This document shows positions 1 through 64,000 of a stretch of DNA of 64,000 bases, in pieces. The position numbers and the translations under genes are program-made. The stretch spans positions 1 to 64,000 of the forward strand of contig NW_026728203.1 of the NCBI RefSeq assembly GCF_030684315.1, written 5' to 3'. The notes beneath the pieces were generated by a model. It was not told the DNA's origin. It saw nothing but the letters and a program-made list of their open reading frames with translations, and ran no database searches. The stretch is from Stegostoma tigrinum. Its lineage: Eukaryota. The stretch's first letter is position 1, and every line of letters begins with the position of its first letter.

Positions 1-2224
1 GCTCCCAGTCTCTTCAGGTTGGTGATGTGATCTCCCAGCTTCTTGATCATCTTCACTTGCTCATCCAAGTATTGCCTCTCCAGGAAGTCACACAGCTGGA
101 AGAGAAAATTAATCCAGAGGATCAAAAGTGTCTGAAAGTGACCCCCATGACAGATGTGACCATCACAACCAGGTGGAGGTCCACTGAGGTGATGCATTTG
201 TAAGTTTGTTTTAACAGCCTGCAGGAGGCTGGGAGAAGGTAATTGGATTTTTACCCAGAGAGTGCACAAACACACCACTTTCTTCCAAGAAGAAAGTTTA
301 CAAACTCACATGAGGGTCAGTGTGGCCAGAGGCGAGTTTGTGCAGATCCAGCAGACTCTGGTTCACATCCTTCTCCATCTGCAGAGCTCTCTGCATTGCC
401 TCCAGACCACTGCCCCACTCATCCTGCTCTGGCTTCTGGAGGGAGGGAAGCAGGAACAGAAAGCACAGTTCAGCAGGCAGTTGTATCATTAGTCTACATC
501 TGATCAGTTAGTTATCCCTCATCATTGTAGGGGAGGTACTGCAAACCAACTTTAATTTGAAGACAACAACTAGATTTTGTACTGAGGGAATAACAAATTT
601 TCTAAACACATTCTACTGTTAATGTAGATTCTCAGAATTCACATGTAGAGAATAGGTACCAATGGAAGTAGTTCCTGGCTTCACTATTGTGGTGTTAGAA
701 ACATCTTCCAGATTCAGAAAGGCTGGACACTGCTACTTTCCACAGTGCAACAATTTCCTGTCTTAGCTTTTGTTACCTCATTCTGTCTGAAGGAGAGTCA
801 TTCACATTGATATCTACTCACTATTCTGGTTCCTCTCAATTGCCCTCATAAGTGCAGAGTATTTCCTTTCAACCTAAAGGAATCCTATTTTGGTGAACAC
901 CCTCCCCTTCACACAGTATTTGTTCAAGGCTAAAGCTAAATAGATGGAGATACCAGTCGATTGTAGCTGCTCACAAAAAGCTGCAAACAGAAGGCTTCAG
1001 AATCTAACCTTAATGTCCTGCAGGAGGACTCGACCTCCACGTTTATTCTGGAATGCCATCAGTTTCTCAGCGTGTTCCCGTTCCTCATGGGACTGCTCCT
1101 TGAAGAACTCAGCAAAGTGATGCAGGGCAACATCATCCCGGTCAAAGTAAGAGAACTGTGGGAAGAGAGGCTGAAAGGAAACTGTCTGAAATTCATGAAT
1201 GACACTCCTCACTCTGGAACTAACCTGGGCACCATCTGGATTCCACATTTAAGTGGTTAAAAAAACAGACAAAGCAGGAAGTCACCTTCCATGGATGATG
1301 AAGGGGAGAGCTGTCTAGAGCCATTAGACATCCGTGCTCTGCAGGTTAGAAACACTATTGTTCAGGAGGTGGAGACCAGTTCGGCCCCTGTCCAACTGAA
1401 TGAAGGGACATGTGTTCATTAACACAACCAGAAAGCTCAGTCAGCAGTCTCATTATCACTATCACCCACCTGAATAACCGCAGTGTCCTACCACCCACTC
1501 CACAGAATTTTAACTGCTTTGTTAGAGAGAGAAAGAAAAAAAAACACATACATAGTCTGAAAATGTGCCCCTTTCCTCACATTGCATAGCTCAAAGCCAC
1601 TTCTGAGAAAGGGTCAATGGACCCAGAGCTTGGATTTCTTCCAGCTCTGTAGAGCTTTTCTAGCTATTTTTGTTAGTGTTTAATGTCTAGCAGCAGCTGT
1701 TCTTTTAGTTCAGGGAACTTGACATCTTGAGCACAAGACAGTCCGGTGAATAGGGCAAGGTTTTAAAAAAGGAGTATATTTGTGTCAGGAAAAGCTTTTG
1801 TTGAGAAAAGGAATACAACCAAAGTTTTACAAAAATTAATTATTGACCAAGACCAGATCATCCCTCCAGAGTTAGATGAAAAAAATCACCAAGGGTTACA
1901 TTGTCCAGAGACAGCAAGCTGGGCATCCACATCCAGGAGCCAGTTGGACATGAAGACAGTGGTCAAGTTTTGAACAGAGAGTCAGTGATAAGACCTGCAC
2001 TAGATTACAACAGGGGAAGGGCCACAGAAAATAATACATGTTACAGCTAATTCATTAACCCAGCATAAAAACCAAACAGGTCAACACTATCATAGCACAG
2101 GCTTCAATTCCACAAAGCTCACCATGGAGAGGTAAACATAGGAGGAATAGAGCTCCAGGTTGATCTGCTTGTTAACAGCATCCTCACAGTCCTGGTGGTA
2201 GTTCTGACACACTTGGGAAACCAT
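1..2224 (-). CDS. Ferritin heavy/middle-type subunit, array gene 1 (type A); exon 4 runs off the window start
   Basis: Exons 2123-2224 ([34 protein letters not shown]), 1009-1155 ([24 protein letters not shown]), 310-435 ([11 protein letters not shown]), <1-95 ([15 protein letters not shown]..). GT-AG phase-0 introns at the standard vertebrate ferritin positions. Confidence 0.95.
1601..1705 (+). mobile_element. Degenerate Penelope-like/hammerhead-type short repeat in intron 1 (homologues near 13404, 19494, 27584, 34321, 50772, 57578)
   Basis: CTGAGAAAGGGTCAATGGACCCAGAGC resembles a decayed CTGANGA-stem-GAAAC minimal hammerhead core followed by the same pyrimidine-rich tail in each copy. Confidence 0.45.
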
Positions 2225-2540
2225 CTTCACTATTCCTGCTCACAAGCACCAAGAAAACTCTAGAACTAAGTCTCTCTCTCCCACAGGCTCTTGTATTTAT
2301 AGTCCTGGGACCATCCTGCAGTCACACAGAGAGAGGCAGAACTGATGATGACTGACAGTTGCTGGTGGCCAATCAGGAACCACCCCTGCATACAGGCACC
2401 AATGAGAGAGAGGGGGAGGGTGTGTTAAGCAGAGCTGATCAGAGGTGGAGATGAGAGCCAGGTCTGGATGGTTATTCTGTGATTGGAACAGCAGGAGGCC
2501 ATTCGGCATCTCAAACCTTCTGCACCACTCAATCAGGTCA
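2225..2540 (-). promoter_or_regulatory. 5' UTR and proximal promoter of ferritin gene 1
   Basis: TATAAATA (minus strand) at 2294-2301, about 70 nt upstream of the ATG; CCAAT boxes at 2369-2373, 2399-2403 and 2482-2486; block conserved in genes 2, 3, 5, 7, 8. Confidence 0.75.
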
Positions 2541-2734
2541 TGGGTCATTTGGTTCTTTTTTAAAATAAGTCAATTTGGTTTGAGAAAAGTTTTCACATTT
2601 TTTTTAATTAAGGTGGTTGTGAGCAACTGCACGAGGGATTCAATGAGGAAGAGGGGCATCAGTTTCTCAGCTTGTTATGCTGGGATTTGGGAAAGAAAGT
2701 TGGGAAATTGTCTCTGGATCATAGAAAATTGTAA

Positions 2735-3066
2735 CAGTGTCAGCTGTGGAAAAGACAGGAAGGATGTTCCTGATTATGGGGGAGTTCAGGACCAGGGTTT
2801 GCAGTCTAAGGATACATTTAGAACTGAGGTGAGGAGAAATCTCTTCACCTCGGGGGGCGGGGTGGTGGATCCTGTGGAATTCTCTGCCACAGAAAAGGAT
2901 TGAAGCCAAAACAGGAATTGGGGAGAGCTTTGAGGGCTGGATCAAAAGGGAATGCAGAGAGGGTGAGAATATGGTGCTGAGTTATGGAATCAGCCACAAT
3001 CACATGGAATGGCAGAGCAGGCTGGAAGGGATGAATGGCCGACTCAACATTTATTTTCTATGATTC
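2735..3066 (+). mobile_element. Old CR1-type LINE 3' fragment (homologues near 20640, 35456, 51910, 58725)
   Basis: Decayed ORF2 C-terminal DNA (aggagaaatctcttcacc..tgtggaattctctgccacag) ending in gaatggcc..ttctatg tail. Confidence 0.65.
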
Positions 3067-3089
3067 CACGTTTGTGCAACTAGCGCAGC

Positions 3090-3620
3090 CAGGGTCTTGT
3101 GGTTAAGGGGTCATGTCCCTAGCTGTGGACCAGGAGGCCTTGGTACAAGTTCCTACCAGATCCAGAGATCTTAAATCATCTCTACAGGCAGATTTAGAAA
3201 ACAACCAGAACAGGTACAGGCACAAAGGACCGAATGGCCTCCTGCTGTGCCATAACAATTCTCCGATTCTGTGGTGGGTCTGTACCTGAGCAGAATCTCC
3301 CTGCCTCCAGCTCCTGCCCGTGGATTGTCACCTCGCAGTGATGGAAAGCCTCGAGTGTTCTGTTGGTTCTCAGAGTGATAAGTGAAGAGGATTTCACCTC
3401 CTGGCAGGGCCACCCAGGATGGTACGATCGAGGGGAGGGTCCTGATAAAGTGCAATGCAAAACCAGTCCCCAGCGGCCATCCAGGTGGAAGATAGGTGTG
3501 TGCGATCGTTGGCTGTGACAGTGGGTGTTGGTCAGCAGTGGGGGGATCCCCAGTCAACATTTCTTTGCCAGTGGAACTGGGTCTACCTTGTGTAAAGGAC
3601 CATGTCTCTGCTGGCGTGTA
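3090..3620. mobile_element. Probable SINE-derived interspersed repeats (homologues near 21010, 35810, 52265, 59095)
   Basis: tRNA-like head tggttaagggg..ggtacaagttcc (degenerate A/B boxes) at about 3100-3155; GC-rich block repeated in A- and C-type spacers; no credible protein. Confidence 0.35.
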
Positions 3621-3719
3621 ACAGCTTTCCCACATTAAAGGTGCCTTCTACAGGTGGAATTCAAACCCCGTCCCCAAACTCTCAGAATTTCCTGAGTGGA
3701 AATTCAGAGCGTTTTTCAC

Positions 3720-4500
3720 AACAGGAGGCCGTTCAGCCCACCGTTCCTGTAATAGCTTCTGAAAGAGCTACCTGATTAGTCTCACTTTCCAGCCCTATCT
3801 CTGTCACTCTCTAAATTCGTCACTTCCAACGACATATCCAACTCTTGTTCTGAAACCAACCATGGAATCGACCTCCGTCACTCTCCCAGGCAGCACATTC
3901 CAAATCCGAACAACTTTCTGAGCAAAGAGTTTTCTAACCATTTCACTCTGATCTCCCCTACTGACAAACTGTGACCCCTCGTCACTGACAAGTCAACTGC
4001 TGAAATCAGAATATCCTGCTTTACTCTGACAAAATTGATCATAGTTTTGATCACGTCAATAAGGTCACCTACAAGGAGATTTCCCCCATTTTCCTTAATC
4101 TTTCCGTGTATCTAAAATTCCCCATTCCTGGGGTCATTGTAATAAATCACCTTTGAACACTTTTGAGGTTTTTCACATCCTTCCTTGAATGTCACGCCCA
4201 GAACTGAGTACATAATGGAAATGTGGTCTAACCAATGATTTGTAGAGGTGTAACATCAATTCGTTGCTTTTATACTCGATGCCTCAATTTGAAAACACAA
4301 GGTTCACAAAAGTGGCTCAATCTCCATTAATAACAGCTTCATCCTGCCTGACCACTTTCAGATAATCACATACTTGAAACTGAAAGTCGCTGAGCTCCTG
4401 TACTCACATCAGATTTGTAACATCGAGCCTGTTTTGACTTTGTGTTTCTTTGACAAAAATGCATTACTCACTTTTTTTTGTTGAAATTGGAAAGTGATTG
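3720..4500 (-). mobile_element. Ancient degraded CR1 LINE 3' fragment shared by the spacers (also about 14865-15640, 21650-23620, 28685-29430, 36440-37220, 52895-53680, 59735-61700)
   Basis: aggaggccgttcagccc tail motif and gcccagaactg..tgtggtctaacc segment alignable by eye to the young CR1 RT C-terminus (VRPHLEYCVQFW region). Confidence 0.6.
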
Positions 4501-5164
4501 GCAACATCAAACCTTGTGCAGTAAATATCTGTGTGTGCAGATATTGTCCTTTCCACAAAGAAATTGTTTTTGATATTATCCTGGATGATGTAGTTCTAAT
4601 GTGAAGATTGTCATCCCATTCTGCGCACAGTCCGAGATGATCATTGAGAAGAAATGGGTTCTTTCCTCTCTACCCTGTCAAATCCATTAATCCTCTGAAA
4701 ATTATCAATTACAGCCATCCCTTAACTTCCTACACAGAGGGACTGGACAAGCCGTTATCATGAATTAACCATCTCTCTGTCCAGGTTACTTCCAGAAATT
4801 CCGTGCATAACCATCTTTGGGTCGAACCTGCCAGAACTGTGCACTCCGGCTGTGGTTGAACAGGAACTTGACCATTTCACCAAAACCTCTTCATCCAGAG
4901 GTATTTGAACCCCTCAGAGATCAGGGCCAACATTAGTTTAGAGAATGTGGTGACTTGCCTTCTTGCATTACTGTTGCCCATTTGGTGTAATCAAACCCAT
5001 ACTGCTGTTAGGGAGGGAACCTGGGAGCGATGTTTCCAACACCAGCTGATCGGTGGTTTGGTGTAGAACGTGGTGTTAGAACATAGAACATAGAACAGTA
5101 CAGCACAGAACAGGCCCTTCAGCCCACAATGTTGTGCCGACCATTGATCCTCATGGATGCACCC

Positions 5165-8064
5165 TCAAATTTCTGTGACCATATGCATGTCCAGCAGTCT
5201 CTTAAATGACCCCAATGACCTTGCTTCCACAACTGCTGCTGGCAACGCATTCCATGCTCTCACAACTCTCTGCGTAAAGAACCTGCCTCTGACATCCCCT
5301 CTATACTTTCCACCAACCAGCTTAAAACTATGACCCCTCGTGCTAGCCATTTCTGCCCTGGGAAATAGTCTCTGGCTATCGACTCTATCTATGCCTCTCA
5401 TTATCTTGTATACCTCAATTAGGTCCCCTCTCCTCCTCCTTTTCTCCAATGAAAAGAGACCGAGCTCAGTCAACCTCTCTTCATAAGATAAGCCCTCCAG
5501 TCCAGGCAGCATCCTGGTAAACCTCCTCTGAACCCTCTCCAAAGCATCCACATCTTTCCTATAATAGGGCGCCCAGAACTGGACGCAGTATTCCAAGTGC
5601 GGTCTAACCAAAGTTTTATAGAGCTGCAACAAGATCTCACGACTCTTAAACTCAATCCCCCTGTTAATGAAAGCCAAAACACCATATGCTTTCTTAACAA
5701 CCCTGTCCACTTGGGTGGCCATTTTAAGGGATCTATGTATCTGCACACCAAGATCCCTCTGTTCCTCCACGCTGCCAAGAATCCTATCCTTAATCCTGTA
5801 CTCAGTTTTCAAATTCGACCTTCCAAAATGCATCACCTCGCATTTATCCAGGTTGAACTCCATCTGCCACCTCTCAGCCCATCTCTGCATCCTGTCAATG
5901 TCCCGCTGCAGCCTACAACAGCCCTCTACACTGTCAACGACACCTCCGACCTTTGTGTCGTCTGCAAACTTGCTGACCCATCCTTCAATTCCCTCGTCCA
6001 AGTCATTAATAAAAATTACAAACAGTAGAGGCCCAAGGACAGAGCCCTGTGGAACCCCACTCACCACTGACTTCCAGGCAGAATATTTTCCTTCTACTAC
6101 CACTCGCTGTCTTCTGTTGGCCAGCCAATTCTGTATCCAAGCAGCTAAGTTCCCCTGTATCCCATTCCTCCTGACCTTCTGAATGAGCCTTCCATGGGGA
6201 ACCTTATCAAATGCCTTACTGAAGTCCATATACACCACATCCACAGCTTGACCCTCATCAACCTTACTAGTCACATCCTCAAAAAACTCGATAAGGTTTG
6301 TAAGGCATGACCTACCCCTCACAAAGCCGTGTTGACTGTATTTGATCAAGCCATGCTCTTCCAGATGGTCATAAATCTTATCCCTCAGAATCCTTTCTAA
6401 CACCTTGCAGACGACAGACGTGAGACTTACCGGTCTATAATTGCCGGGGATTTCCCTATTTCCTTTCTTGAAGAGAGGAATTACATTTGCCTCTCTCCAG
6501 TCCTCAGGTACGACTCCAGTGGAGAGCGAGGATGCAAAGATCTTCGCAAGTGGCGAAGCAATTGCATTTCTCGCTTCCCAAAGCAGCCGAGGACAAATCT
6601 GATCCGGGCCTGGCGACTTGTCAATCTTAATGTTTGACAAAATTTTCAGTACATCAGCTTCCTCTATCTCTATCCATTCCAGCATGCACACCTGCTCTTC
6701 AAAAGGTTTCATTCACTACACAGGTCGTTTCTTTCGTAAAGACAGAAGCAAAAAACTCATTTAGGGCTTCCCCTACCTCCTCAGGCTCCACACACAAGTT
6801 CCCTATGCTATCCCTGATCGGCCCTACTCTTTCTTTGACCATTCTCTTATTCCTCACGTAAGTGTAAAATGCCTTTGTGTTTTCCCGGATTCCTTCTGCC
6901 AAGCCTTTCTCGTGCCCCCTCCTGGCTCTCCTCAGACCATTTTTGAGCTCCTTCCTTGCCTGCATGTAATCCTCTCTAGCTGAACTTGACCCTAGCTTCC
7001 TCCACCTTATGTAAGCTACCTTCTTCCTTTTCACTAGAAGCTCCACCGCTCTCGTCATCCAAGGTTCCTTTATCTTACCCCGTCTTGCCTGTCTCAGAGG
7101 GACATATTTACTCATCACTCCCAACAACTGTTCCTTAAACCATCTCCACATGTCTATAGTTCCCTTACCATGGAACAACTGCTCCCAGTCCATGCTTCCT
7201 AACTCGTGTCTAATCGCATCATAGTTTCCTCTTCCCCAATTAAATATCCTCCCATTCTGCCTAATCCTCTCCTTCTCCATAGCTATGTAGAATGAGAGAG
7301 TGTTATGGTCACTATCACCAAAATGCTCTCCCACCACAAGATCTGATACCTGCCCCGGCTCGTTTCCGAGCACCAAGTCTAGAATGGCCTCTCCCCTCGT
7401 CGGCCTGTCAACGTACTGCGTTAGGAAACCCTCCTGAACACACCTTACAAAAACAGCTCCATTCAAATCCTTCTGCTCGAAGGAGGTTCCAATCAATATT
7501 AGGAAAGTTAAAGTCACCCATTACAACAACCCTACTGCGTCCACACTTTTCCAAAATCTGTCGACCTATGCTTTCTACAATCTCCCTGCTGCTATTGGGG
7601 GGCCTGTAGTAAACCCCTAACGAGGTGACTACTCCCTTGCTGTTCCTAATTTCCACCCATACTGACTCAGTAGGCAGATCTTCCTCGACAATGGAAGCTT
7701 CTGTAGCTGTGATACCCTCTCTGATTAGTAGTGCTACACCCCCTCCTCTTTTTCCCCCCTCCCTATTCTTTTTAAATGTTCTAAACCCTGGAATATCCAG
7801 CAACCATTCCAGCCCATGAGAAACCCATGTCTCTGTTATGGCCACAACATCATAGCACCAGGTACTGATCCATGCTCTAAGTTCATCACTTTTATTCCTG
7901 ATACTCCTTGCATTAAAGCAAACACACTTTAACCGATCCCTTGGTTCCTTCCCAGGAAAATCCTTCCCACTAGCTGGTCTACCTCTTGCTACTGCCTCAC
8001 CTGCATCAACGCTCACCTCTGGTATACAGCTCAGGTTCCCACCCCCCTGCCATACTAGTTTAAA
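5165..8064 (-). pseudogene. CR1 ORF2 (APE endonuclease + reverse transcriptase), interrupted by two 1-bp insertions
   Basis: Motifs FNARS, ITETW, YYRPP, MGDFN, SDH, NYRPVSL, DFSKAFD, GVPQGSVLGP, FADD split over ORFs 7408-8175, 6699-7517 and 5165-6712; extra base in runs at 7465-7467 and 6701-6704. Confidence 0.9.
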
Positions 8065-8990
8065 CCCTCTCGAACTACTCGAGCAAACCTTCCACCCAGG
8101 ACATTGGTCCCCTTCCAGTTCAGATGCAACCCGTCCTTCTTGTACAGGTCCCACCTTCCCCAGAAGGCATCCCAATTATCAACATATCTGAAACCCTCCC
8201 TCCTACACCAGCTGCGTAGCCACGTGTTCAGCTGCGCCCGCTCCCTGTTCCTCACCTCGCTATCTCGTGGCACTGGTAGTAAACCAGAGAACACTACTCT
8301 GTTCGTCCTGCTCTGCAGCTTCCATCCTAACTCCCTGAAATCACTTTTTATATCCTCAAACCTATTTCTGGCTATATCATTTGTGCCAATATGTAACACG
8401 ATTTCTGGCTGTTCACCCTCCCCTTTCAGAACTTTATACACCCGATCGGAGACGTCCCGGACCCTGGCACCAGGGAGGCAACATACCTTCCGGGAATCCC
8501 GATCTTGCCCACAAAATCTCCTGTCGATTCCCCTAACTATCGAGTCCCCTACCACGAGTACTTTTCTATTCTGCCCCCTTCCCTTCTTTGCCACAGTGTC
8601 AGGCTCAGTGCCAGAGAACTGACTACTATGGCTTTCCTCTGGTAGGTCAACCCCCCCAGCAGTATCCAAAACGGTATACTTATTGCTGAGGGGAATGCCC
8701 ACAGGGGATCTCTGCACTGTCTGTCTGTCCCCTTTCCTCCCCCTAACTGTAACCCATCTATCCTCGTCCTGAGCCTTAGGAGTGACCAACTCCCGATAAC
8801 TCCTCTCAATTACCCCCTCTGCCTCCCGAATGATCCGTAGTTCATCCAGCTCCAGCTCCATTTCCCTAACACGGTTTTCAAGGAGCTGTAGCTGGGTGCA
8901 CTTCCCGCAGATGTAGCCAGCGGAGACGTGTGCCACATCTCCCAACTGCCACATTTTGCAGGAGGAGCAAGCAACTGCCCTAGCATCCAT
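8055..8990 (-). CDS. CR1 ORF1p: CxxC..CxxC zinc finger, coiled coil and SGNH/GDSL esterase domain
   Basis: 311-aa open ORF: CSSC..CGKC, heptad LQLLENRVREMELELDEL, VGDS, HIGTND, DGLH motifs typical of esterase-type CR1 ORF1. Confidence 0.9.
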   Translation of the reverse strand: MDARAVACSSCKMWQLGDVAHVSAGYICGKCTQLQLLENRVREMELELDELRIIREAEGVIERSYRELVTPKAQDEDRWVTVRGRKGDRQTVQRSPVGIPLSNKYTVLDTAGGVDLPEESHSSQFSGTEPDTVAKKGRGQNRKVLVVGDSIVRGIDRRFCGQDRDSRKVCCLPGARVRDVSDRVYKVLKGEGEQPEIVLHIGTNDIARNRFEDIKSDFRELGWKLQSRTNRVVFSGLLPVPRDSEVRNRERAQLNTWLRSWCRREGFRYVDNWDAFWGRWDLYKKDGLHLNWKGTNVLGGRFARVVREGLN

Positions 8991-9191
8991 ACCCCACTTA
9001 TCTGAACACCCACTCAGTACTAAAGCAGAAAGCTCACTTCAAGTAATAATAACAAATTAATAACAAACTTATGTTCAATAGAGAAAGTTTAGAATGAACC
9101 TTACCTTATTAACTAGGTTAGAGGAGGAGGGCGGGTGGGAGACACTACAGTTGTAGAGTCTCGGGTTAAGCCGCCTTGCTGATATATATGG

Positions 9192-9600
9192 TCACTGCTT
9201 TCCTTCCCGGCTGCCCCTCTGGTCCTCGTCACTTCCTCTGATGCTCCCGCTCCTTCTCTGAAAGAGCAAAAAAAAACACCGCTGCCCGCTACCGGTAAGT
9301 AATTTTAAAAATAAACTGCTTTACCTTAGCTGCAGTCTTCCGGGTCCGTCTTGCCTCCGCTGCTGCTCGCACTCAAAAAGGCCGTTGGCGTCGAAGGGTG
9401 AGTATTTATACTCACTGCTTTCCTTCCCGGCTGCCCCTCTGGTCCTCGTCACTTCCTCTGATGCTCCCGCTCCTTCTCTGAAAGAGCAAAAAAAAACACC
9501 GCTGCCCGCTACCGGTAAGTAGTTTTAAAAATAAACTGCTTTACCTTAGCTGCAGTCTTCCGGGTCCGTCTTGCCTCCGCTGCTGCTCGCACTCAAAAAG
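9192..9600. repeat. Two 189-bp direct repeats (period 220) forming the LINE 5' end
   Basis: 9192-9380 and 9412-9600 match except one substitution (aattttaaaa vs agttttaaaa). Confidence 0.9.
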
Positions 9601-9886
9601 TTCCCACATATCATCTGCCCTTGTCCGATGGAAAGTAGTTACGGTTTTAAGAAGTTGGCTGAGGAGCTTTGGTGGATTCCTACAGCATTTGGTACATGGT
9701 ATATATTGCAGTCTCTGCGTATGTCAGTGGTGGAAGGATAGACGAAAGTGGCTGCTCGTTTGCTGGAGGCTGTCAACATTCTGGAGTGTTAGACTGACAC
9801 CTGTAATCCTGATACTGTCTGACTTGACAGAATTTCATGCACATCATTCTCTTTCCAGAAGAGATGGTCCAAACAAGCCTCTTCTG

Positions 9887-10055
9887 GTTCACTAATGTCC
9901 TTGTTCGTAAGAAACTGCCATCCTTACCTGATCGGGCCTTTGCGTAACGCCACAGGCAGAGCAAAGGGGTTTAATTTGAATTACTCATGGGCTGGGTGGG
10001 TAATCAGAGATGGATAATAAATGCTGCCTGTCAGTGATAGCCTGATCCTGTTAAA
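9887..10055 (+). mobile_element. Old SINE/L2-like 3' fragment (homologues near 16515, 24525, 31500, 42608, 47795, 54550, 62610)
   Basis: ggttcactaatgtcc..ccatccttacctg..ggataataaatgctg block recurring in every spacer; family assignment is tentative. Confidence 0.45.
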
Positions 10056-11078
10056 GCACTTACACAAACCAGTCACATTGTAATTCAGGGCTGATTGATA
10101 GTGATTAGGCCACCACAGTGCACTGTTTGGAGTCACAGGTCAGCCAGATCAGCTCTCCTGCTGAAGATTAATAAACGTAAAAATTGGAACTGCCGATTCT
10201 GCACATGGTATTTGTATTTTAGCTTGATTTTCCACCAGGCATCCTCAGTATTTGTCACCTCTTCGTTGCAGGGTAATAATAGAAATTATCACACAGGGAA
10301 CGAGGTGGGCACCGCTTCATTCGCATGGCCGTTCCTAGACGTTAGCATTCTAAGAGAAGGTAGATTTTTCCTTCTCCTACATGTATAAAGGAAATACTGA
10401 AGAAACTAATTCCCTAGCTCTGGGAACAATGACATGAGCAATTGCTTATGTCAAAGAAAAAAAGAGACTGTGGAAAAGCATTGTATCTTAGTCTTGTAAG
10501 GAGGAATTTTACAAACTACTAAAATCACTAACATCTAGGCATGAGAACAAATTGCTGGAAAACACCTCACTGTCAGGCAACAAAGTCAATCAAGAGATGA
10601 TTGAGTGTCTCATGTCCAGGTTCTGTTCAACCCTTCTCCCTACCAATGCTGCCCAACCTGAGATTTCCCAGCAGGTTGTGTTCCTGGTTTCCAGAATCTC
10701 CTTATTTAAAAGAGATGCAAACACATGGCCAAGGACAGTGCATTAGATCAGTGCCTACCCTTTAGGCAAAGGAATGATTTCAGTCAGTGTATTGATTAGA
10801 AGCTGGTCCTGCAAACTTGTCCCTGTGAGTACATGTCAGTAATGCTGATTTATCTGTCAACAACCTTACCAGTTATGGAATTTCCAATTAAAGGATTGCC
10901 CACTCAATCCCCAGATACAGCAGAATCAAACACTGATCAAGGTACTGGGGCAGGCATTGAATCAAAAGCTTGTCACAAAGAACAAAGGATTGATGATCAG
11001 ACATTAAAACACAAAAAGCTCCAAGAACCAGAAGCTATGAAAATTACACACTGTGCTCAGTTCCATGGTGAACACTAT

Positions 11079-11084
11079 TTTAAT
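11079..11084 (-). terminator. Putative poly(A) signal ATTAAA of gene 2 (same motif at equivalent position in most copies)
   Basis: tttaat on + strand about 73 nt downstream of the stop codon in a conserved 3' block; altered to ATCAAA in gene 3. Confidence 0.5.
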
Positions 11085-11156
11085 TTGCTCAGAGCACAAC
11101 TAGTCATTTAGTAGAATGAGGTCACCTTGTACAACAGATATAGATATTGACCCCAT

Positions 11157-14083
<2,927 letters not shown>

Positions 14084-14387
14084 CTTCACTATTCCCACTC
14101 AAGAAGTGAGTTGCTCTTCCACAAGCTCTGTATTTATAGTCCTGGGACCATCCTGCACTCACCCATGGAGAGGCAGAACTGATGATGACTGACAATTGCT
14201 GCTAGCCAATCAGGAACCACCCATGCATACAGGCACCAATGAGAGAGAGGGGGTGGGTGTGTTAAGCAGAGCTGATCACAGGTGGAGATCATATTCAGGT
14301 CTGGATGGTTATTCTGTGATTGGAACAGCAGGAGGCCATTCAGCATCTCAAACCTGTTGCTCCACTCAATCAGGTCATGGGTCATTT
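14084..14387 (-). promoter_or_regulatory. 5' UTR and promoter of gene 2
   Basis: TATAAATA at 14131-14138 and conserved CCAAT boxes; 5' UTR shorter than in type A. Confidence 0.7.
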
Positions 14388-17735: not shown

Positions 17736-20123
<2,388 letters not shown>

Positions 20124-20445
20124 CTTCACTATTCCTGCTCACAATCACAAGGACAACTCTGGAACAAAGGCCTCAATCCCCAAAGCTGTTGTGTTTCTAC
20201 TCCTGAGACAACCGGCACTCACCCAGAGGGAGACCGAACTGATGATGACTGACAGTTGCTGCTGGCCAATCAGGAACCACCCCTGCATACAGGCACCAAT
20301 GAGAGAGAGGGGGAGGGTGTGTTAAGCAGAGCTGATCAGAGGTGGAGATGAGAGTCAGGTCTGGATGGTTATTCTGTGATTGGAACAGCAGGAGGCCATT
20401 CGGCATCTCAAACCTTCTGCACCACTCACTCAGGTCAGAGATCAT
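20124..20445 (-). promoter_or_regulatory. Promoter of gene 3, TATA box degenerate
   Basis: TAGAAACA at 20192-20199 replaces TATAAATA; upstream TGACTGACAG/CCAAT block conserved. Confidence 0.65.
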
Positions 20446-22238
20446 TTGGTTCTTTTCTGAAAGAAGTAAATATGGTTTGAGAAAAGATTGCTCGTTTTGT
20501 TTTTAAATTATGGTGGTTGTGATCAACTGCAGAAGGGACTCATTGAGGAAGGGGAGTGTCAGTTTCTCAGCCTGTTGTGCTGGGATTTGGGAAAGAAAGG
20601 TGGGAAATTGGCTCGGGGTCATCGAAAATTGTCATAGTGTCAGCTGTGGAAAAGACAGGACGGATGTTCCTGATGATGGAAAAGTTTAGGACCAGGGGTC
20701 ACAGCCTAAGGACACATTTAGGACTGAGATGAGGAGAAATCTCTTCACCGAGAGAGTGGGGGTCCTGTGGAATTCTCTGCCACAGAAAACATTTGAGGCC
20801 AAAACTTTGAATTTTTTCCAGGAGCAGTTGGGTGTAGCTTTGAGGGCTGAAGGGATCAAAGAGTATGGAGAGAGAGTGGGAAGATGGGACTGAGTTATGG
20901 AATCAGCCACAATCACATGGAATGGCAGAGCAGTCTGGAGGGGTCTGAATGGCCGAATCCAACAATTTTTTTTCGATGATTCTAAGTTTGTACAACCAGT
21001 GCAGCCAGGGTATTGTGATTCAGGGGTAATGTCCCTAGCTGTGGACCAGGAAGCCTTGGTCCAAGTCCATACCAGATCCAGAGATTTTGTAACATCTCTA
21101 CAGGCAGAATTAGAAAACAACCAGAACAGGTGCAGGCACAAAGGACCGAATGGCCGCCTGCTGTGCCACAACAATTCTCCGATTCTGTGATGGGTCTGTA
21201 CCTGAGCAGCATCTCCCTGCCTCCAGCTCCTGCCTGTGGATTGTCACCTCGCAGTGATGGAGAGCCTCGAGTGTTCTGTTGGTTCTGAGAGTGATACCTG
21301 AAGAGGATTTCACCTCCTGGCAGGGCCACCCAGGACGGTACGATCGAGGGGAGGGTCCTGGTAAAGTGCAATGCAAAACAAGTTCCCAACGGCCATCCAG
21401 GTGGAAGATAGGCGTGTGCTATCGTTGGCTGTGACGGTGGGTGAAGGTCAGCAGTGGGGGGATCCCCAGTCAACATTTCTTTGCCAGTGGAACTGGGTCT
21501 ACCTTGTGTAAAGGACCATGTCTCTGCTGATGTGTAACAGCTTTCCCACATTAAAGGTGCCTTGTACAGGTGCCCACTGAGAGGAGTACAAAGCCCCTCT
21601 CCAAACTCTGAGAATTTCCTGGGGGAACATGCAGAGGATTTTTAATGATAGGAGGCCATTTGGCCCATCGTGCCTGATTCAGTTTCTGAAAGCATTCCAC
21701 ACCCAGCCCCACTCTCCAGCCCTATGTCTGTATCCCTCTAAATTTGCCACTTCCATATATGTATACAGCTGCTTTGCTAAAGCCACCTACGGAATCTGCG
21801 TCCATCACTCCTGTCAGCTACGCATACCAAACCCTACCAACTTTCTGAGTGAAGAGGTTTCTCCTCCTCTCACTGTGAGCTCCCTCACTGACAAATTGTG
21901 ACCCCTCGTCACTAACGTATCCACTGGTGAAAACAGAATATCCCCCTTTACCCTGACAGAATTGGTGATAATTTTGATCACTTCAACAAGTGCTCCTTGC
22001 TCCAAGGAGAATAAGCGCTATTTCTTTAATCTTTCCGTGTGTCTGAAATTCCCCATTCCAGGTGTCATTATTATAAATCACCTTTGAACTCTGTCCAGGG
22101 CTTGAATGCCCTTCCTTAAAAGCCACGCCCAGAACTGAGCACATCACTGCAAATGTGGTCTAACCAATGAGTTGTAGAGGGGTATCATCAATTCCTTGCT
22201 TTTATGCTCGATGCCTCAATTTGAAAACACAAGGTTCA

Positions 22239-25819: not shown

Positions 25820-28228
25820 TCAACGGAGTGGCAGCCTGTCAAACATGTACTCTCCCATGCCATTGTCAGGGGCTCCCAGTCTCTTCAGGTTGGTGATGTG
25901 ATCTCCCAGCTTCTTGATCATCTTCACTTGCTTATCCAAGTAGTGCCTCTCCATGAAATCACAGCTGGAAGACAAAATTAATCCAACAAGGATCAAAAAA
26001 TGTCAGTGACCTCCCATGACAGAAGTGACCATCACCTCACTATGGGGGAGGGGCATGCAAGTGATGCCTTCACAAGGTTTTGTTTAAACATCCTGCAGGA
26101 GGCAGAGAGAAAAATAATTGGATTCCCCACCCTGGAAGTACACAAACAGATCACTTTCTTCCAGGAAAGGGATAAAACCTCACATGAGGGTCTATGTGGT
26201 CAGAGGCAAGTTTGTGCAGATCCAGCAGACTCTGGTTCACATCCTTCTCCATCTGCAGAGCTCTCTGCATCACCTCCAGACCATTGCCCCACTCATCCTG
26301 CTCTGGCTTCTGAAGGGAGGGAAGCAGGAACAGAAAGCACAGCTCAGCAGGCAGTTCTATCATTAGTCTACATCTGATCAGTTAGTTATCCCTCATCATT
26401 TCCAGGGGTTACATTCAGACAAAAAATTTTACTTGGATACAAAAACCCTCTAGATTTTATGCTGGTCTGAGAATAAAGAAATGTTAACATATCCCACTGT
26501 TACTGTGAATTCTGAAAGAAGTCGTATCTAGAATCAGTCGCAATGGAAGTAATCCCTTGCTTTACTGTTTGATGTAGTGACCAGAATGGTCCCAAGGCAT
26601 TACAAACCTCTTCTGGATGTAGTGAGGTTGGATGCTGCTGCTTTTTGTAGCTGCAAGTTCTCAGCCTTACCTTTTGTTACCTCACCTTGTCCATATAGAG
26701 TCACATACAGGGACATGTGCTCACCATCCAGTAGCCTGGATCATCAGAATTGCCTTCTGCTATTGAGTCACAAATGCAAAGTATTTCCCTTTTCCCTAAA
26801 CAAATCCTGTTTTGGTGAACAACTTGCCCTTGACATAGTATTTGATCAATCCTGAAGCTAAATAGATGGAGATACCAGTCGATTGTAGCTGCTCAAAAAG
26901 CTGCAAACAGACAGACATTCTCAGAATCCAACCTTGATGTCCTGCAGGAGGACTCAGCCTCCACGTTTATTCTGGAATGCCATCAGTTTCTCAGCATGTT
27001 CCCGCTCCTCATGGGACTGCTCCTTGAAGAACTCAGCAAAGTGATGGAGGGCAACATCATCCCGGTCAAAGAGAGAGAACTGCAAACAGACAAAATGGGA
27101 AGTAAATTTCACTCAATTCAGCTTGGTTTTGCTCACGAAATGGAAGTTAGATGGACAGTAAGAAGACAGGTATTTACATTTATGGTCATCCATAAACTAA
27201 ACTAGACAGACATTTGTTCAAACATCTAGAAATAAAGATTAAGTAGCACCCGCTACAACCGCTGGTCGGTGACTTGGTGAGACAGTGCACGGTGACGGTC
27301 ACAGCTGGCAACAGGCATTAGACATCCCTGCACTGCAGGTCAGAAACACTATTACCCAGTGCTGGAAGCCAATCAGGGCATTGTCCAACAGAACGAAGGG
27401 ACATGTGCATGTTGACCAAGAGAAGCTGAAATCTGAGCTCCTCACATTACCAACATCACTCATCTGATTTAGCCCCACTGTCCTAACACCTCATCTGCAC
27501 AGAGACAGTGACTGATTTTTGTTCCAGATAATCCATCTTGGGAGTGGAAAAAGTCTGCTCCTCATAATTAGCAACTAAAAACCATGAAGGAAAGGTCACT
27601 GGACCAAAAACAGGAACTTATTTCTCACCACAGATCCTACCAGACCCACTAAGCTTTTCCAGCAGCTCATTTTAGTCTTTTATTTCCAGTAGTTAATCAC
27701 AGTTAGGATGCTTATTAAAAAAAAGGCTTCATTAAAAGGACAAGATATAAAAAGTTAGATTTGGACTGATGCAGGCTTCCACAAGGATGTAAATGATTTC
27801 AAATATAAATGGGCCATTGATATCAACATGGAAGGAGGAGTTGAATTGAGAAGCAGAACCAGGCCATCCCTCAGCACCAAAAATGTGCTCTGCCCAGAAT
27901 TACAACATACTGGGGACTCCTAGACAAGAGCCAGCTCCAACACAAGACAAGCTTAAAATTGCTACAGAATTAGTATTAAGAGCACTCACAGGATTCATTC
28001 CAGGAAGGACAACAGACAAGATATATGGTAGTACTAAATCATTGAGCAAGAAGCCACTTAAAGGCTCAGTACAATCATATCACAGCCCTAACACTGAAAT
28101 AGACCATTCAAGATCACAAGTCTCACCATGGAGAGGTAAACATAGGAGGAATAAAGCTCCAGGTTGATCTGTTTGTTCACAGCATCCTCACAGTCCTTGT
28201 GGTAGGTCTGACACACTTGGGAGGCCAT
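25820..28228 (-). pseudogene. Ferritin pseudogene, gene 4 (type D)
   Basis: Exons 28127-28228, 26933-27079, 26184-26309, 25820-25964; in-frame TGA (CGA>TGA) at 26954-26956; 2-bp deletion at the start of exon 4 giving CTG TGA; promoter deletion near 28362. Confidence 0.9.
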
Positions 28229-29434
28229 CATCACTAGCCTTGTTCATTAAAACCAAGACCACCCTAGAACTGAGTTGCTCCCCGACAAGCTCTGTATTTA
28301 TACTCCTGGGGGCCATCCCGCACTGACGCAGAGAAGGGCAGAACTGATGATGACTGGCAATTGAAAAAAGCTTTAACATTTTGTTTCTAAATTAAGGCGG
28401 TTGTGACAAACTGCACGAGGAAGTCAATGAAGAAGAGGTGTCAGTTTCTCAGCCTGTTGTGCTGGGATATGAGACAGAAAGGTGGCAAATTGGCTCTGGG
28501 TCATAGAAAACTGTGACAGGATCAGACGGGGCAAGGACAGGAAGGATGTTCCCAATGATGGGGGAGTCCAGGATCAGGGTATCCTGATGTAAGAGGACTG
28601 GGTTGGACATTTAAGACTGAGAGGAATACAAACCCAAAATTTACAAAAGTTCCTGGGTGGACATTCAGAGGATTTTTAACGACAGAGGCCATTCAGCCCA
28701 TCATGTCCGTATCGGCTTCCGAAAGAGCTACCCACCTAGTCCCCCTCTCCAGCCCTACACCCTCTATATTCGTCACTCCCAAGTATATATCCAGCTCTTG
28801 TTTTGAAGCCACCTATGGGATCTACCTCCGCCACTCTCCCAGGCATCAGATTCCAAATCCTAACAACCTTCTGAATAGAGAGGTTTGTCCTCATCTCAGA
28901 GCTCCCTTACTGACAAATTGTGACCCCTCATCACTGCCGTATCAACTGGTGAAAACAGGATATCCTCCTTTACATGCCAGAATGTTCATTATTTTTGTCA
29001 CTTCAACGGGGACACCTCTTAATCAACTATGCTTCAAGGAGATTTATCCCAATTTCCTTCATCTTTCCTTGTATCTGAAATCCCTCATTCCTGGTGTCAT
29101 TCTCGTAAATGCCCTTTGAACTCTGTCGAGGGCTTTAATGTCCTTCCTTAAATACCATGCCCAGAACTGAACACAGTACTGCAAATGTGGTCTAACCCAT
29201 GATTTGTGGAGGTGTAACATCTATTCCTCGCTTTTATACTCTCCGCATCTATTTGAAAACACACATTTCACAAAAGCCTTCTTCATAGCAGGTTAGTCCC
29301 GCTCGGCCACTTTCAGATAATCACATACTTGAAACCCAAAGTCCCTCTGCTCCCGTACTCACCTCAGATTTGTAACATCGAGCCTGTTTTGTCTTTCTAT
29401 GTTTCTCAACCAAAATGCATTAATCTTTTATGTT

Positions 29435-32669: not shown

Positions 32670-34945
32670 TCAGCCGAGTGTGAGCCTGTCAAACAGGTAC
32701 TCTCCCATGCCATTGTCAGGGGCTCCCAGTCTCTTCAGGTTGGTGATGTGATCTCCCAGCTTCTTGATCATCTTCACTTGCTCATCCAAGTATTGCCTCT
32801 CCAGGAAGTCACACAGCTGGAAGAGAAAATTAATCCAGAGGATCAAAAGTGTCTGAAAGTGACCCCCATGACAGATGTGACCATCACAACCAGGTGGAGG
32901 TCCACTGAGGTGATGCATTTGTAAGTTTGTTTTAACAGCCTGCAGGAGGCTGGGAGAAGGTAATTGGATTTTTACCCAGAGAGTGCACAAACACACCACT
33001 TTCTTCCAAGAAGAAAGTTTACAAACTCACATGAGGGTCAGTGTGGCCAGAGGCGAGTTTGTGCAGATCCAGCAGACTCTGGTTCACATCCTTCTCCATC
33101 TGCAGAGCTCTCTGCATTGCCTCCAGACCACTGCCCCACTCATCCTGCTCTGGCTTCTGGAGGGAGGGAAGCAGGAACAGAAAGCACAGTTCAGCAGGCA
33201 GTTGTATCATTAGTCTACATCTGATCAGTTAGTTATCCCTCATCATTGTAGGGGAGGTACTGCAAACCAACTTTAATTTGAAGACAACAACTAGATTTTG
33301 TACTGAGGGAATAACAAATTTTCTAAACACATTCTACTGTTAATGTAGATTCTCAGAATTCACATGTAGAGAATAGGTACCAATGGAAGTAGTTCCTGGC
33401 TTCACTATTGTGGTGTTAGAAACATCTTCCAGATTCAGAAAGGCTGGACACTGCTACTTTCCACAGTGCAACAATTTCCTGTCTTAGCTTTTGTTACCTC
33501 ATTCTGTCTGAAGGAGAGTCATTCACATTGATATCTACTCACTATTCTGGTTCCTCTCAATTGCCCTCATAAGTGCAGAGTATTTCCTTTCAACCTAAAG
33601 GAATCCTATTTTGGTGAACACCCTCCCCTTCACACAGTATTTGTTCAAGGCTAAAGCTAAATAGATGGAGATACCAGTCGATTGTAGCTGCTCACAAAAA
33701 GCTGCAAACAGAAGGCTTCAGAATCTAACCTTAATGTCCTGCAGGAGGACTCGACCTCCACGTTTATTCTGGAATGCCATCAGTTTCTCAGCGTGTTCCC
33801 GTTCCTCATGGGACTGCTCCTTGAAGAACTCAGCAAAGTGATGCAGGGCAACATCATCCCGGTCAAAGTAAGAGAACTGTGGGAAGAGAGGCTGAAAGGA
33901 AACTGTCTGAAATTCATGAATGACACTCCTCACTCTGGAACTAACCTGGGCACCATCTGGATTCCACATTTAAGTGGTTAAAAAAACAGACAAAGCAGGA
34001 AGTCACCTTCCATGGATGATGAAGGGGAGAGCTGTCTAGAGCCATTAGACATCCGTGCTCTGCAGGTTAGAAACACTATTGTTCAGGAGGTGGAGACCAG
34101 TTCGGCCCCTGTCCAACTGAATGAAGGGACATGTGTTCATTAACACAACCAGAAAGCTCAGTCAGCAGTCTCATTATCACTATCACCCACCTGAATAACC
34201 GCAGTGTCCTACCACCCACTCCACAGAATTTTAACTGCTTTGTTAGAGAGAGAAAGAAAAAAAAACACATACATAGTCTGAAAATGTGCCCCTTTCCTCA
34301 CATTGCATAGCTCAAAGCCACTTCTGAGAAAGGGTCAATGGACCCAGAGCTTGGATTTCTTCCAGCTCTGTAGAGCTTTTCTAGCTATTTTTGTTAGTGT
34401 TTAATGTCTAGCAGCAGCTGTTCTTTTAGTTCAGGGAACTTGACATCTTGAGCACAAGACAGTCCGGTGAATAGGGCAAGGTTTTAAAAAAGGAGTATAT
34501 TTGTGTCAGGAAAAGCTTTTGTTGAGAAAAGGAATACAACCAAAGTTTTACAAAAATTAATTATTGACCAAGACCAGATCATCCCTCCAGAGTTAGATGA
34601 AAAAAATCACCAAGGGTTACATTGTCCAGAGACAGCAAGCTGGGCATCCACATCCAGGAGCCAGTTGGACATGAAGACAGTGGTCAAGTTTTGAACAGAG
34701 AGTCAGTGATAAGACCTGCACTAGATTACAACAGGGGAAGGGCCACAGAAAATAATACATGTTACAGCTAATTCATTAACCCAGCATAAAAACCAAACAG
34801 GTCAACACTATCATAGCACAGGCTTCAATTCCACAAAGCTCACCATGGAGAGGTAAACATAGGAGGAATAGAGCTCCAGGTTGATCTGCTTGTTAACAGC
34901 ATCCTCACAGTCCTGGTGGTAGTTCTGACACACTTGGGAAACCAT
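32670..34945 (-). CDS. Ferritin heavy/middle-type subunit, gene 5 (type A, duplicate of gene 1), intact, 173 aa
   Basis: Exons 34844-34945, 33730-33876, 33031-33156, 32670-32816; ends DRLTLG-TGA. Confidence 0.95.
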
Positions 34946-35261
34946 CTTCACTATTCCTGCTCACAAGCACCAAGAAAACTCTAGAACTAAGTCTCTCTCT
35001 CCCACAGGCTCTTGTATTTATAGTCCTGGGACCATCCTGCAGTCACACAGAGAGAGGCAGAACTGATGATGACTGACAGTTGCTGGTGGCCAATCAGGAA
35101 CCACCCCTGCATACAGGCACCAATGAGAGAGAGGGGGAGGGTGTGTTAAGCAGAGCTGATCAGAGGTGGAGATGAGAGCCAGGTCTGGATGGTTATTCTG
35201 TGATTGGAACAGCAGGAGGCCATTCGGCATCTCAAACCTTCTGCACCACTCAATCAGGTCA
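34946..35261 (-). promoter_or_regulatory. 5' UTR and promoter of gene 5
   Basis: TATAAATA at 35015-35022; same as gene 1 promoter. Confidence 0.75.
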
Positions 35262-41711: not shown

Positions 41712-41912
41712 ACCCCACTTATCTGAACACCCACTCAGTACTAAAGCAGAAAGCTCACTTCAAGTAATAATAACAAATTAATAACAAACTTATGTTCAAT
41801 AGAGAAAGTTTAGAATGAACCTTACCTTATTAACTAGGTTAGAGGAGGAGGGCGGGTGGGAGACACTACAGTTGTAGAGTCTCGGGTTAAGCCGCCTTGC
41901 TGATATATATGG

Positions 41913-42321
41913 TCACTGCTTTCCTTCCCGGCTGCCCCTCTGGTCCTCGTCACTTCCTCTGATGCTCCCGCTCCTTCTCTGAAAGAGCAAAAAAAAACAC
42001 CGCTGCCCGCTACCGGTAAGTAATTTTAAAAATAAACTGCTTTACCTTAGCTGCAGTCTTCCGGGTCCGTCTTGCCTCCGCTGCTGCTCGCACTCAAAAA
42101 GGCCGTTGGCGTCGAAGGGTGAGTATTTATACTCACTGCTTTCCTTCCCGGCTGCCCCTCTGGTCCTCGTCACTTCCTCTGATGCTCCCGCTCCTTCTCT
42201 GAAAGAGCAAAAAAAAACACCGCTGCCCGCTACCGGTAAGTAGTTTTAAAAATAAACTGCTTTACCTTAGCTGCAGTCTTCCGGGTCCGTCTTGCCTCCG
42301 CTGCTGCTCGCACTCAAAAAG
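41913..42321. repeat. Two 189-bp direct repeats at LINE copy 2 5' end
   Basis: Same as 9192-9600 plus 32,721. Confidence 0.9.
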
Positions 42322-43877: not shown

Positions 43878-45087
<1,210 letters not shown>

Positions 45088-49001: not shown

Positions 49002-51397
<2,396 letters not shown>

Positions 51398-51715
51398 CTT
51401 CACTATTCCTGCTCACAAGCACCAAGAAAACTCTAGAACTAAGTCTCTCTCTCCCCAGGCTCTTGTATTTATAGTCCTGGGACCATCCTGCAGTCACACA
51501 GAGAGAGGCAGAACTGATGATGACTGACAGTTGCTGGTGGCCAATCAGGTACCACCCCTGCATACAGGCACCAATGAGAGAGAGGGGGAGGGTGTGTTAA
51601 GCAGAGCTGATCAGAGGTGGAGATGAGAGTCAGGTCTGGATGGTTATTCTGTGATTGGAACAGCAGGAGGCCATTCGGCATCTCAAACCTTCTGCAGCAC
51701 TCAATCAGGTCATAG
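51398..51715 (-). promoter_or_regulatory. 5' UTR and promoter of gene 7
   Basis: TATAAATA at 51466-51473; TGACTGACAG and CCAAT boxes conserved. Confidence 0.72.
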
Positions 51716-55814: not shown

Positions 55815-58208
<2,394 letters not shown>

Positions 58209-58530
58209 CTTCACTATTCCTGCTCACAATCACAAGGACAACTCTGGAACAAAGGCCTCAATCCCCAAAGCTGTTGTGTTTCTACTCCTGAGACAACCGG
58301 CACTCACCCAGAGGGAGACCGAACTGATGATGACTGACAGTTGCTGCTGGCCAATCAGGAACCACCCCTGCATACAGGCACCAATGAGAGAGAGGGGGAG
58401 GGTGTGTTAAGCAGAGCTGATCAGAGGTGGAGATGAGAGTCAGGTCTGGATGGTTATTCTGTGATTGGAACAGCAGGAGGCCATTCGGCATCTCAAACCT
58501 TCTGCACCACTCACTCAGGTCATAGGTCAT
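58209..58530 (-). promoter_or_regulatory. Promoter of gene 8, TATA box degenerate
   Basis: TAGAAACA at 58277-58284, as in gene 3. Confidence 0.65.
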
Positions 58531-63904: not shown

Positions 63905-64000
63905 TCAACGGAGTGGCAGCCTGTCAAACATGTACTCTCCCATGCCATTGTCAGGGGCTCCCAGTCTCTTCAGGTTGGTGATGTGATCTCCCAGCTTCTT
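63905..64000 (-). pseudogene. 3' end of exon 4 of gene 9, type D; probably a pseudogene like gene 4
   Basis: Encodes [31 protein letters not shown], matching gene 4; the disabling lesions would lie outside the window. Confidence 0.65.

What the first reader, a model, noticed from the sequence alone, without database searches (positions are those of the whole stretch)
2225..2301. Ferritin genes with no iron-responsive element; possible deleted IRE relic
Seen: TATA lies only about 50-70 nt from the ATG, so the 5' UTR is short, and there is no CAGUGN loop between TATA and ATG in any copy that has exon 1. The type A UTR reads TTCTTG-GTGCTTG-TGAGCAGGAA and type C reads TCCTT-GTGATTG-TGAGCAGGAA. 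Established: vertebrate H/L/M ferritin mRNAs usually carry a 5' IRE like TTC(C/T)TGCTTCAACAGTG(C/A)TTG..GGAA. Inference: the array escapes IRP translational repression, and the UTR may be an IRE that lost CTTCAACA (speculative).
Basis: partly seen in the sequence, partly recalled or inferred. Interest (0 to 1): 0.7.

Follow-up and report, generated by a model that had tools for sequence, protein, structure and literature searches.

The report
Shark ferritin array lacking iron switch
A shark carries a row of near-identical iron-storage (ferritin) genes that lack the RNA hairpin which normally ties ferritin production to cellular iron, which would suit stockpiling iron in eggs; the gene expansion itself is already published, and the idea that a broken hairpin is still visible is unproven.

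Summary
The window is a tandem array of M-like ferritin genes (seven copies with exon 1, one without, one cut by the edge) in a carpet shark; two copies match named zebra shark proteins 173/173. In types A, B and D a TATA box and initiator predict 5' UTRs of only 24-43 nt. No CAGUG lies between TATA and ATG in 7 of 7 copies, and Rfam finds no IRE anywhere in 64 kb, while two teleost controls score 46-52 bits. The intervals between genes were scanned too, so a nearby upstream IRE exon is unlikely.

The genes form an elasmobranch-only clade, distinct from the ordinary shark M-type and H ferritins, with intact ferroxidase residues. Read-through translations suggest the same short IRE-free leader in horn and basking shark. 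A 2024 preprint reports ancient, ovary-expressed ferritin clusters in sharks without mentioning IREs.

Best reading: an amplified, transcription-controlled, IRP-independent ovarian iron store, working like IRE-less snail yolk ferritin. The relic idea is borderline: not significant against shuffles with generic aligners, p about 0.005 only for type A with a tailored model. Start site, IRP binding and the shark orthologue's own IRE are untested.

The parts
2294..2301 (-). TATA box of copy A1 (TATAAATA)
   Evidence: the same 9-mer starts the promoter of the IRE-bearing teleost control L002
2263..2269 (-). Initiator-like TTAGTTC; predicted +1 A at 2267, 34 nt after the first T of TATA (31 nt in B1 and D1, 33 in A3, none in C1)
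   Evidence: the YYANWYY consensus and the -31 spacing are recalled; start site not measured
2225..2267 (-). Predicted 43-nt 5' UTR of A1, no IRE
2233..2255 (-). Stretch resembling the two outer arms of a ferritin IRE without the upper 5' stem and first loop bases (the proposed relic); its type C form appears conserved as far as sawfish
   Evidence: borderline statistics; peptide LVIVS shared by a C1 frame and P0106
2369..2403 (-). Two inverted CCAAT boxes (ATTGG at 2403 and 2373), present in 5 of 6 promoters examined, absent in D1
2123..2224 (-). A1 exon 1 coding part (34 codons, GT donor)
1009..1155 (-). A1 exon 2
310..435 (-). A1 exon 3
   Evidence: exon 2-3 junction spliced in one contig of run X2
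1..95 (-). A1 exon 4 (cut by the window edge)
11160..14138 (-). Copy B1: intact 173-aa ferritin gene, predicted UTR only 24 nt, lacks the relic-like stretch
17739..20199 (-). Copy C1: intact ORF, degenerate TATA and initiator
25820..28302 (-). Copy D1: pseudogene (stop in exon 2, frame lost in exon 4), TATA and initiator intact; low end approximate
32673..35022 (-). Copy A2: identical to A1 over 2600 nt, intact ORF
43881..45087 (-). Copy B2: exons 2-4 only, exon 1 missing, exon 2 acceptor AG lost
49005..51473 (-). Copy A3: intact ORF
55818..58284 (-). Copy C2: intact ORF, degenerate TATA
63957..64000 (-). Part of exon 4 of a further copy, cut by the window edge

Best explanation
The region is the core promoter and very short 5' UTR of one member of an old elasmobranch-specific ferritin clade. 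The clade arose beside the ordinary M/L-type ferritin gene and was tandemly amplified. Shown: four-exon genes, intact ferroxidase residues, no IRE, own clade. Inferred: transcription starts at the initiator about 31-34 nt after TATA and gives a 24-43 nt leader that IRP1/IRP2 cannot bind, so output is set by transcription and copy number, not by cytosolic iron. Inferred further: the clade serves the ovary or oocyte, building an iron store ahead of demand for large yolky eggs, while the linked single M-type gene and the H gene keep the normal IRE control.
For: No IRE in 64 kb; controls detected. TATA plus initiator in 4 of 5 promoters tested. Window proteins fall in an elasmobranch-only clade with SH-aLRT 100 (41 of 77 rows; 14 of 53 rows), apart from ordinary elasmobranch M-type (98) and H chains (96). 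Both types share a contig length in 12 of 12 species where both were listed with one. E27, Y34, E61, E62, H65, E107 and Q141 (human H numbering, recalled) are present in 5 of 5 intact copies examined. Crude pN/pS is 0.16-0.29 in 7 of 10 pairs. Horn shark P0060 reads through TATA to ATG in 76-79 nt and cannot encode CAGTG in any codon choice; basking shark P0048 reads through in 69 nt. [quoted passage not shown] Snail yolk ferritin lacks an IRE (PMC10799875).
Against: No start-site, IRP-binding or translation data. Ovary expression comes from another species, and orthology of that cluster to this array was not tested (no Greenland shark protein among the listed hits). The IRE of the ordinary shark M gene was not seen. 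The trees are quick trees and do not resolve the array's sister group. Of 8 copies, D1 is dead, B2 lacks exon 1, and C1 and C2 lack TATA; 3 of 10 pairs have pN/pS 0.42-0.78. No cytoplasmic polyadenylation element lies before the poly(A) signal in 6 of 6 copies, and there is no signal peptide, unlike snail yolk ferritin. Basking shark P0048 could encode CAGTG just before its ATG.
Confidence: 0.6

Rival explanations
1. The stretch at 2233-2255 descends from the ancestral IRE. One 8-9 nt deletion removed the upper 5' stem and first loop bases and switched off IRP control in the founder of the clade. This can be true together with the best explanation.
For: Type A aligns to the L002 IRE with both arms and the GGAA end in order. 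The tailored one-deletion model gives p=0.005 for A and 0.06 for C. Salmon M chains have a CAGUGA loop (PMC4117605), matching the type C form. Linkage to the M-type gene makes an IRE-bearing ancestor likely.
Against: 0 of 40 generic tests reach shuffle p<0.05. The tailored model was designed after seeing the match. D gives 0.15 and B 0.67. The stretch starts about 13 nt after the predicted cap, against about 26-31 nt in L002, and ends 8 nt before the ATG, against about 140 nt, so two more losses are needed. The aligner picks a different gap placement for each type.
Confidence: 0.3
2. The conserved UTR stretch is a core-promoter or translation element in its own right (about +17 to +31, where downstream promoter elements sit; recalled). 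Its likeness to an IRE is chance.
For: The peptide LVIVS is shared between a read-through frame of C1 and sawfish P0106, which implies up to 15 conserved nt across the shark-ray split. Related runs appear in horn and basking shark read-throughs.
Against: Conservation is seen only through amino acids of predicted proteins. B1 has deleted the stretch yet keeps TATA, initiator and an intact ORF. Among A, C and D the last 45 nt are only 74% alike, little above introns at 55-73%.
Confidence: 0.25
3. IRE loss is incidental. These are birth-and-death duplicates of low importance, and the missing IRE has no physiological role.
For: One pseudogene, one truncated copy and two TATA-less copies among 8; a recent 13-kb duplication at 98.3%; several odd or fused models among homologues.
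Against: Purifying selection between types, intact catalytic residues, and a clade spanning sawfish and many shark orders. Tissue-specific expression of a large cluster is reported.
Confidence: 0.17
4. The mRNAs do carry an IRE, supplied by an upstream non-coding exon or a distant shared 5' exon, or they bind IRP through a non-canonical structure.
For: An acceptor-like AG with a pyrimidine run lies just upstream of TATA at 2316-2317 in types A and B. One CAGTG pattern hit lies at 15374, 1.3 kb upstream of B1.
Against: The intervals between successive genes lie inside the window and hold no Rfam IRE at E<=10. The 15374 hit has 4 G-U pairs of 5 and matches the chance rate. The acceptor-like AG is missing in C and D. 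No YAG with a pyrimidine fraction above 0.64 lies between TATA and ATG, against 0.79-0.93 at the true acceptors. Predicted UTR folds show no IRE hairpin.
Confidence: 0.05

Closest known systems
Ancient shark ferritin clusters (Sahm et al., bioRxiv 10.1101/2024.09.09.611499; passage and part 1 of 4 read)
   Same: Tandem, mostly full-length ferritin copies in clusters conserved between Greenland and white shark. The window array is very probably the carpet-shark counterpart (inference).
   Different: That text labels them FTL and FTH1 and does not mention iron or IREs ('iron' 0 occurrences). Here they form a separate M-like clade with a short IRE-free leader.
Vertebrate M-chain ferritin (teleost and frog middle subunit)
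   Same: Best PDB matches (using relative P0014); four exons and three introns; ferroxidase residues; same TATA 9-mer as L002.
   Different: Teleost M mRNAs carry a 5' IRE (salmon M1-M3, PMC4117605; L002, L003), with TATA to ATG 231 nt in L002 against 55-77 nt here. Met stands at the position of human A144 / frog D140.
Snail yolk ferritin (Biomphalaria, Lymnaea; PMC10799875 passages)
   Same: No IRE in the 5' UTR; tied to egg provisioning.
   Different: Secreted, with a signal peptide and a 42-aa insertion. The shark proteins have neither.
Mammalian FTMT and FTHL17 (PMC7760355 passages)
   Same: FTMT is not under IRE/IRP control; FTHL17 is germline-expressed and multicopy in mouse.
   Different: FTMT is intronless and mitochondrial; FTHL17 lacks ferroxidase activity. 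The shark genes keep introns and catalytic residues and have no N-terminal targeting extension.

Membership tests
Iron-responsive element (Rfam RF00037; features after Volz 2021, PMC8466369) | C14-G18 cross-loop pair with AGU at 15-17 (CAGUG) | tested here: not met
   0 of 7 TATA-to-ATG segments contain CAGTG
Iron-responsive element | Bulged C8 followed by a five-pair upper helix | tested here: not met
   No pattern hit in any leader; predicted folds show no such hairpin
Iron-responsive element | Covariance-model score at or above gathering (34 bits) | tested here: not met
   No hit at gathering or at E<=10; controls 51.6 and 46.2 bits
Iron-responsive element | IRP1/IRP2 binding and iron-dependent translation | not testable with these tools
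   Needs gel shift and reporter assays
IRE relic (descent from an IRE) | Similarity to an IRE above chance | tested here: inconclusive
   Generic shuffle p 0.06-0.98; tailored model A 0.005, C 0.06, D 0.15, B 0.67
IRE relic (descent from an IRE) | Colinear homology with the 5' UTR of the IRE-bearing shark paralogue | not testable with these tools
   No genome held; only teleost controls obtained, and MAFFT did not align the L002 IRE to the stretch
Vertebrate cytosolic ferritin, ferroxidase-active | Ferroxidase-centre residues E27, Y34, E61, E62, H65, E107, Q141 (numbering recalled) | tested here: met
   5 of 5 intact copies examined; activity itself not measured
Vertebrate cytosolic ferritin | Four exons, three introns | tested here: met
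   GT-AG junctions in the intact copies; same layout reported for salmon
H chain (FTH1 orthologue) | Groups with gnathostome H chains | tested here: not met
   H clade (96) holds chimaera and skate H chains and excludes the window genes (quick tree)
Ordinary elasmobranch M-type gene | One-to-one orthologue of P0114/P0127 | tested here: not met
   Separate clades (98 and 100); their relation is unresolved
Yolk ferritin (snail type) | Signal peptide and 42-aa insertion | tested here: not met
   173 aa; highest 9-residue hydropathy 0.02 in the first 25 aa
Ovary-specific shark ferritin cluster | Ovary-restricted expression | not testable with these tools
   No tissue-labelled RNA run available; taken from another species' report

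The most novel reading that the evidence does not exclude
Before sharks and rays split, one small deletion disabled the IRE of a duplicated M-type ferritin gene. The freed gene was amplified to tens or hundreds of copies as a vertebrate, non-secreted 'egg ferritin', converging on the IRE-less yolk ferritins of snails, and the broken IRE arms were kept as a working leader or promoter element.
Probability: 0.18. Interest if true: 0.68.

Novelty: new variant of a known kind. Interest (0 to 1): 0.42.

Why it matters
IRE/IRP control is treated as a standard feature of vertebrate cytosolic ferritin. An old, amplified, intron-containing and catalytically intact clade without it would be a large natural exception. 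It would explain why many copies are useful, since dosage only raises output if IRP cannot cap translation. It would also change how shark ferritin expansions are read: probably as egg iron provisioning, and not as extra FTH1/FTL. The claim can be tested directly with existing shark genomes, ovary CAGE and a gel shift.

Tried and rejected
Whole genome not held, so the IRE-bearing shark paralogue could not be aligned. Run search: no RNA holder listed. The two guessed-RNA runs cover bin 2141-2247 but not 2248-2354; contigs cannot show a start and the loose-end table was cut, so this says nothing on the start site. Contig depths were not used to rank expression. The IRE pattern scan of metagenomes gave 5 loci: 2 true teleost ferritin controls and 3 matches with no ferritin reading frame found and no Rfam hit, which were dropped. 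A search with the horn shark read-through region found only itself and one coding match among 21 candidates. Read-through test: 13 of 36 N-terminally extended rows showed an IRE translation, none of them array-clade; several of the 36 were mis-split, and extensions of P0007, P0058, P0073 and P0271 do not resemble the promoter and were not used. The pattern hit at 15374 was rejected as chance. The careful tree did not finish; quick trees were used. Piccinelli and Samuelsson 2007 was not available. Word searches of the whale shark genome paper (PMC8455134) and bioRxiv 10.1101/2025.02.19.638963 found no ferritin mention; the zebrafish IRE preprint has no fthl mention. Three look-ups of earlier scan findings gave nothing relevant. 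No structure or complex prediction was run, as the fold is not in question.

Full report
What is there. The window holds a minus-strand tandem array of ferritin genes: A1 (ATG 2224), B1 (14083), C1 (20123), D1 (28228), A2 (34945), B2 (no exon 1), A3 (51397), C2 (58208) and the 3' end of a ninth at the right edge. A2, B1, C1, A3 and C2 encode intact 173-aa proteins. A1 is identical to A2 as far as the window reaches. D1 has a stop in exon 2 and loses frame in exon 4. The best homologues of exon 2 are carpet-shark ferritins at 92-98%, and C1 and A3 are 173/173 identical to records named Stegostoma tigrinum.

The observation. TATAAATA starts at 2301, 77 nt before the ATG. First-T-to-ATG distances are 55-77 nt in the seven copies with exon 1, and none contains CAGTG. 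C1 and C2 have TAGAAACAC in place of TATA. An initiator match lies 31-34 nt after the first T in A1, A3, B1 and D1 but not C1 (4 of 5 tested), predicting UTRs of 43, 43, 24 and 43 nt (consensus recalled). For scale, 110 FTH1 5' UTRs average 245 nt (PMC8466369 supplement, passage), and a teleost M gene fetched here spans 231 nt from TATA to ATG (L002). Rfam finds no IRE in the window at gathering score or at E<=10, while L002 and L003 score 51.6 and 46.2 bits. A motif-plus-stem scan gave 1 weak hit at 15374 against 1.4 expected. Because the genes are in tandem, the DNA between each gene and its upstream neighbour lies inside the scanned window for A1 through C2, so a local upstream IRE exon is unlikely. 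A distant shared exon is not excluded.

The family. In two quick trees the window proteins sit in an elasmobranch-only clade with SH-aLRT 100. It includes sawfish, sevengill, sawshark, horn, cat, smooth-hound, white, basking, whale, bamboo and zebra sharks. It is separate from an ordinary elasmobranch M-type clade (98) and from H chains (96); the branching among these is open. In 12 of 12 species where both types were listed with a contig length, the M-type gene and array genes share it. Skates and Narcine had no array-clade protein among the listed hits. Local duplication from the M/L locus is therefore inferred from linkage, not from the tree. All seven ferroxidase residues are kept in 5 of 5 intact copies, with Met at the position of human A144 in most clade members listed. 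Crude pN/pS is 0.16-0.29 in 7 of 10 pairs and 0.42-0.78 in the other 3.

Age of the IRE-free leader. Some predicted proteins read through their 5' UTR. As a control, 13 of 36 extended rows, all mammalian or teleost H-type, show the IRE translated as LLQQC, ASTV or CFNS. Horn shark P0060 reads SINTRAC, as does a frame of A1 across its TATA box (INTRAC), and reaches the ferritin start 76-79 nt later; no codon choice yields CAGTG. Basking shark P0048 reads YKYKSL, like another A1 frame, reaches the start in 69 nt, and could hold CAGTG only just before the ATG. Sawfish P0106 shares LVIVS with C1 but shows no TATA and could hide CAGTG. This assumes those models follow the genome without a splice. 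It suggests that the short IRE-free leader is at least as old as galeomorph sharks.

The relic idea. Type A does align to a real IRE with both arms in order and an 8-nt gap. With generic local alignment, 0 of 40 tests reached shuffle p<0.05 (best 0.056) and 3 of 40 reached it against genomic windows (best 0.013). A model made afterwards to favour one free deletion gave p=0.005 (A), 0.06 (C), 0.15 (D), 0.67 (B). The stretch also sits nearer both cap and ATG than a true IRE. An IRE-bearing ancestor is likely, so a relic is plausible, but I put it at about 0.3. The stretch may be conserved for another reason.

Expression. One contig of run X2 (RNA status a guess) joins exons 2 and 3 of a close array copy. 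Exon-exon joints for all three introns also appear in X6, which covers introns and so looks like DNA; processed copies would hint at germline transcription, but some may come from other ferritin genes. The deepest contigs in X1 and X2 have loose ends that translate like the ordinary M-type proteins. No start-site information was obtained.

[quoted passage not shown] Salmon H1, H2 and M1-M3 all have IREs (PMC4117605, passages). Snail yolk ferritin has none (PMC10799875, passages), and FTMT is not IRE-regulated (PMC7760355, passages). Ferritin in fish, amphibian and invertebrate eggs is noted in PMC1488847 (passages). IRE criteria are from PMC8466369 (parts 1-3 of 5 and supplement rows). Ten searches found no report of IRE loss in shark ferritins. 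The library lacks most subscription journals and bioRxiv supplements were closed. PMC13701976 (passages) cites a further Greenland shark genome study on ferroptosis that I did not see.

Mechanism and verdict. Most likely these genes start at a TATA/initiator promoter with inverted CCAAT boxes and make mRNAs that IRP cannot bind, so ferritin output follows transcription and gene number. The likely use is iron storage in ovary or oocyte, ahead of demand. Absence of the IRE: about 0.9. The full reading with the ovarian role: 0.6. The expansion is known; the IRE-free leader as a clade trait was not found in print; IRE-less ferritins as a kind are known. New variant of a known kind, interest 0.42.

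Noticed in passing
window 470-525, minus strand (intron 2), and the same place in all 8 copies (e.g. 11710-11765, 26344-26399): A 51-56 nt element with box C, D', C' and D-like motifs, ending 34 nt before the exon 3 acceptor. The last 95 nt of intron 2 are 88-93% alike across types A-D, against 55-73% for other intron segments. Rfam gives only a sub-threshold archaeal sR1 match (best E 1.5e-5). It could be an undescribed C/D snoRNA, a branch-point or splicing element, or a gene-conversion tract; no target was tested.
   Followed up: partly
residue 141 of each intact copy (exon 4): Met stands at the position of human H A144 / frog M D140 beside the ferroxidase centre in most array-clade proteins listed; ordinary shark M and H chains have Ala or Ser.
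   Followed up: partly
window 1-12971 versus 32722-45714; 18672-25915 versus 56728-64000: Higher-order duplications at 98.3% and 97.9%, with A1 and A2 identical over 2600 nt: recent unequal crossing-over or an assembly effect.
   Followed up: no
window 45088-46200: Copy B2 has lost exon 1 and its exon 2 acceptor; the DNA upstream looks like LINE/SINE-type repeat (recalled likeness).
   Followed up: partly
proteins P0006, P0007, P0121 and cluster 6: A second, more divergent multicopy ferritin type lies on the same contig as the array in carpet sharks, with changed ferroxidase-site residues (SQEKREH, EEV). Its IRE status is unknown.
   Followed up: no
run X6 laid on window 1-3200: Exon-exon joints across all three introns in a run that also covers the introns: possible processed ferritin copies.
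   Followed up: no
proteins P0111, P0162, P0223: Records labelled as bacterial ferritins are vertebrate-type sequences (P0111 groups with shark M chains): probable database contamination.
   Followed up: partly
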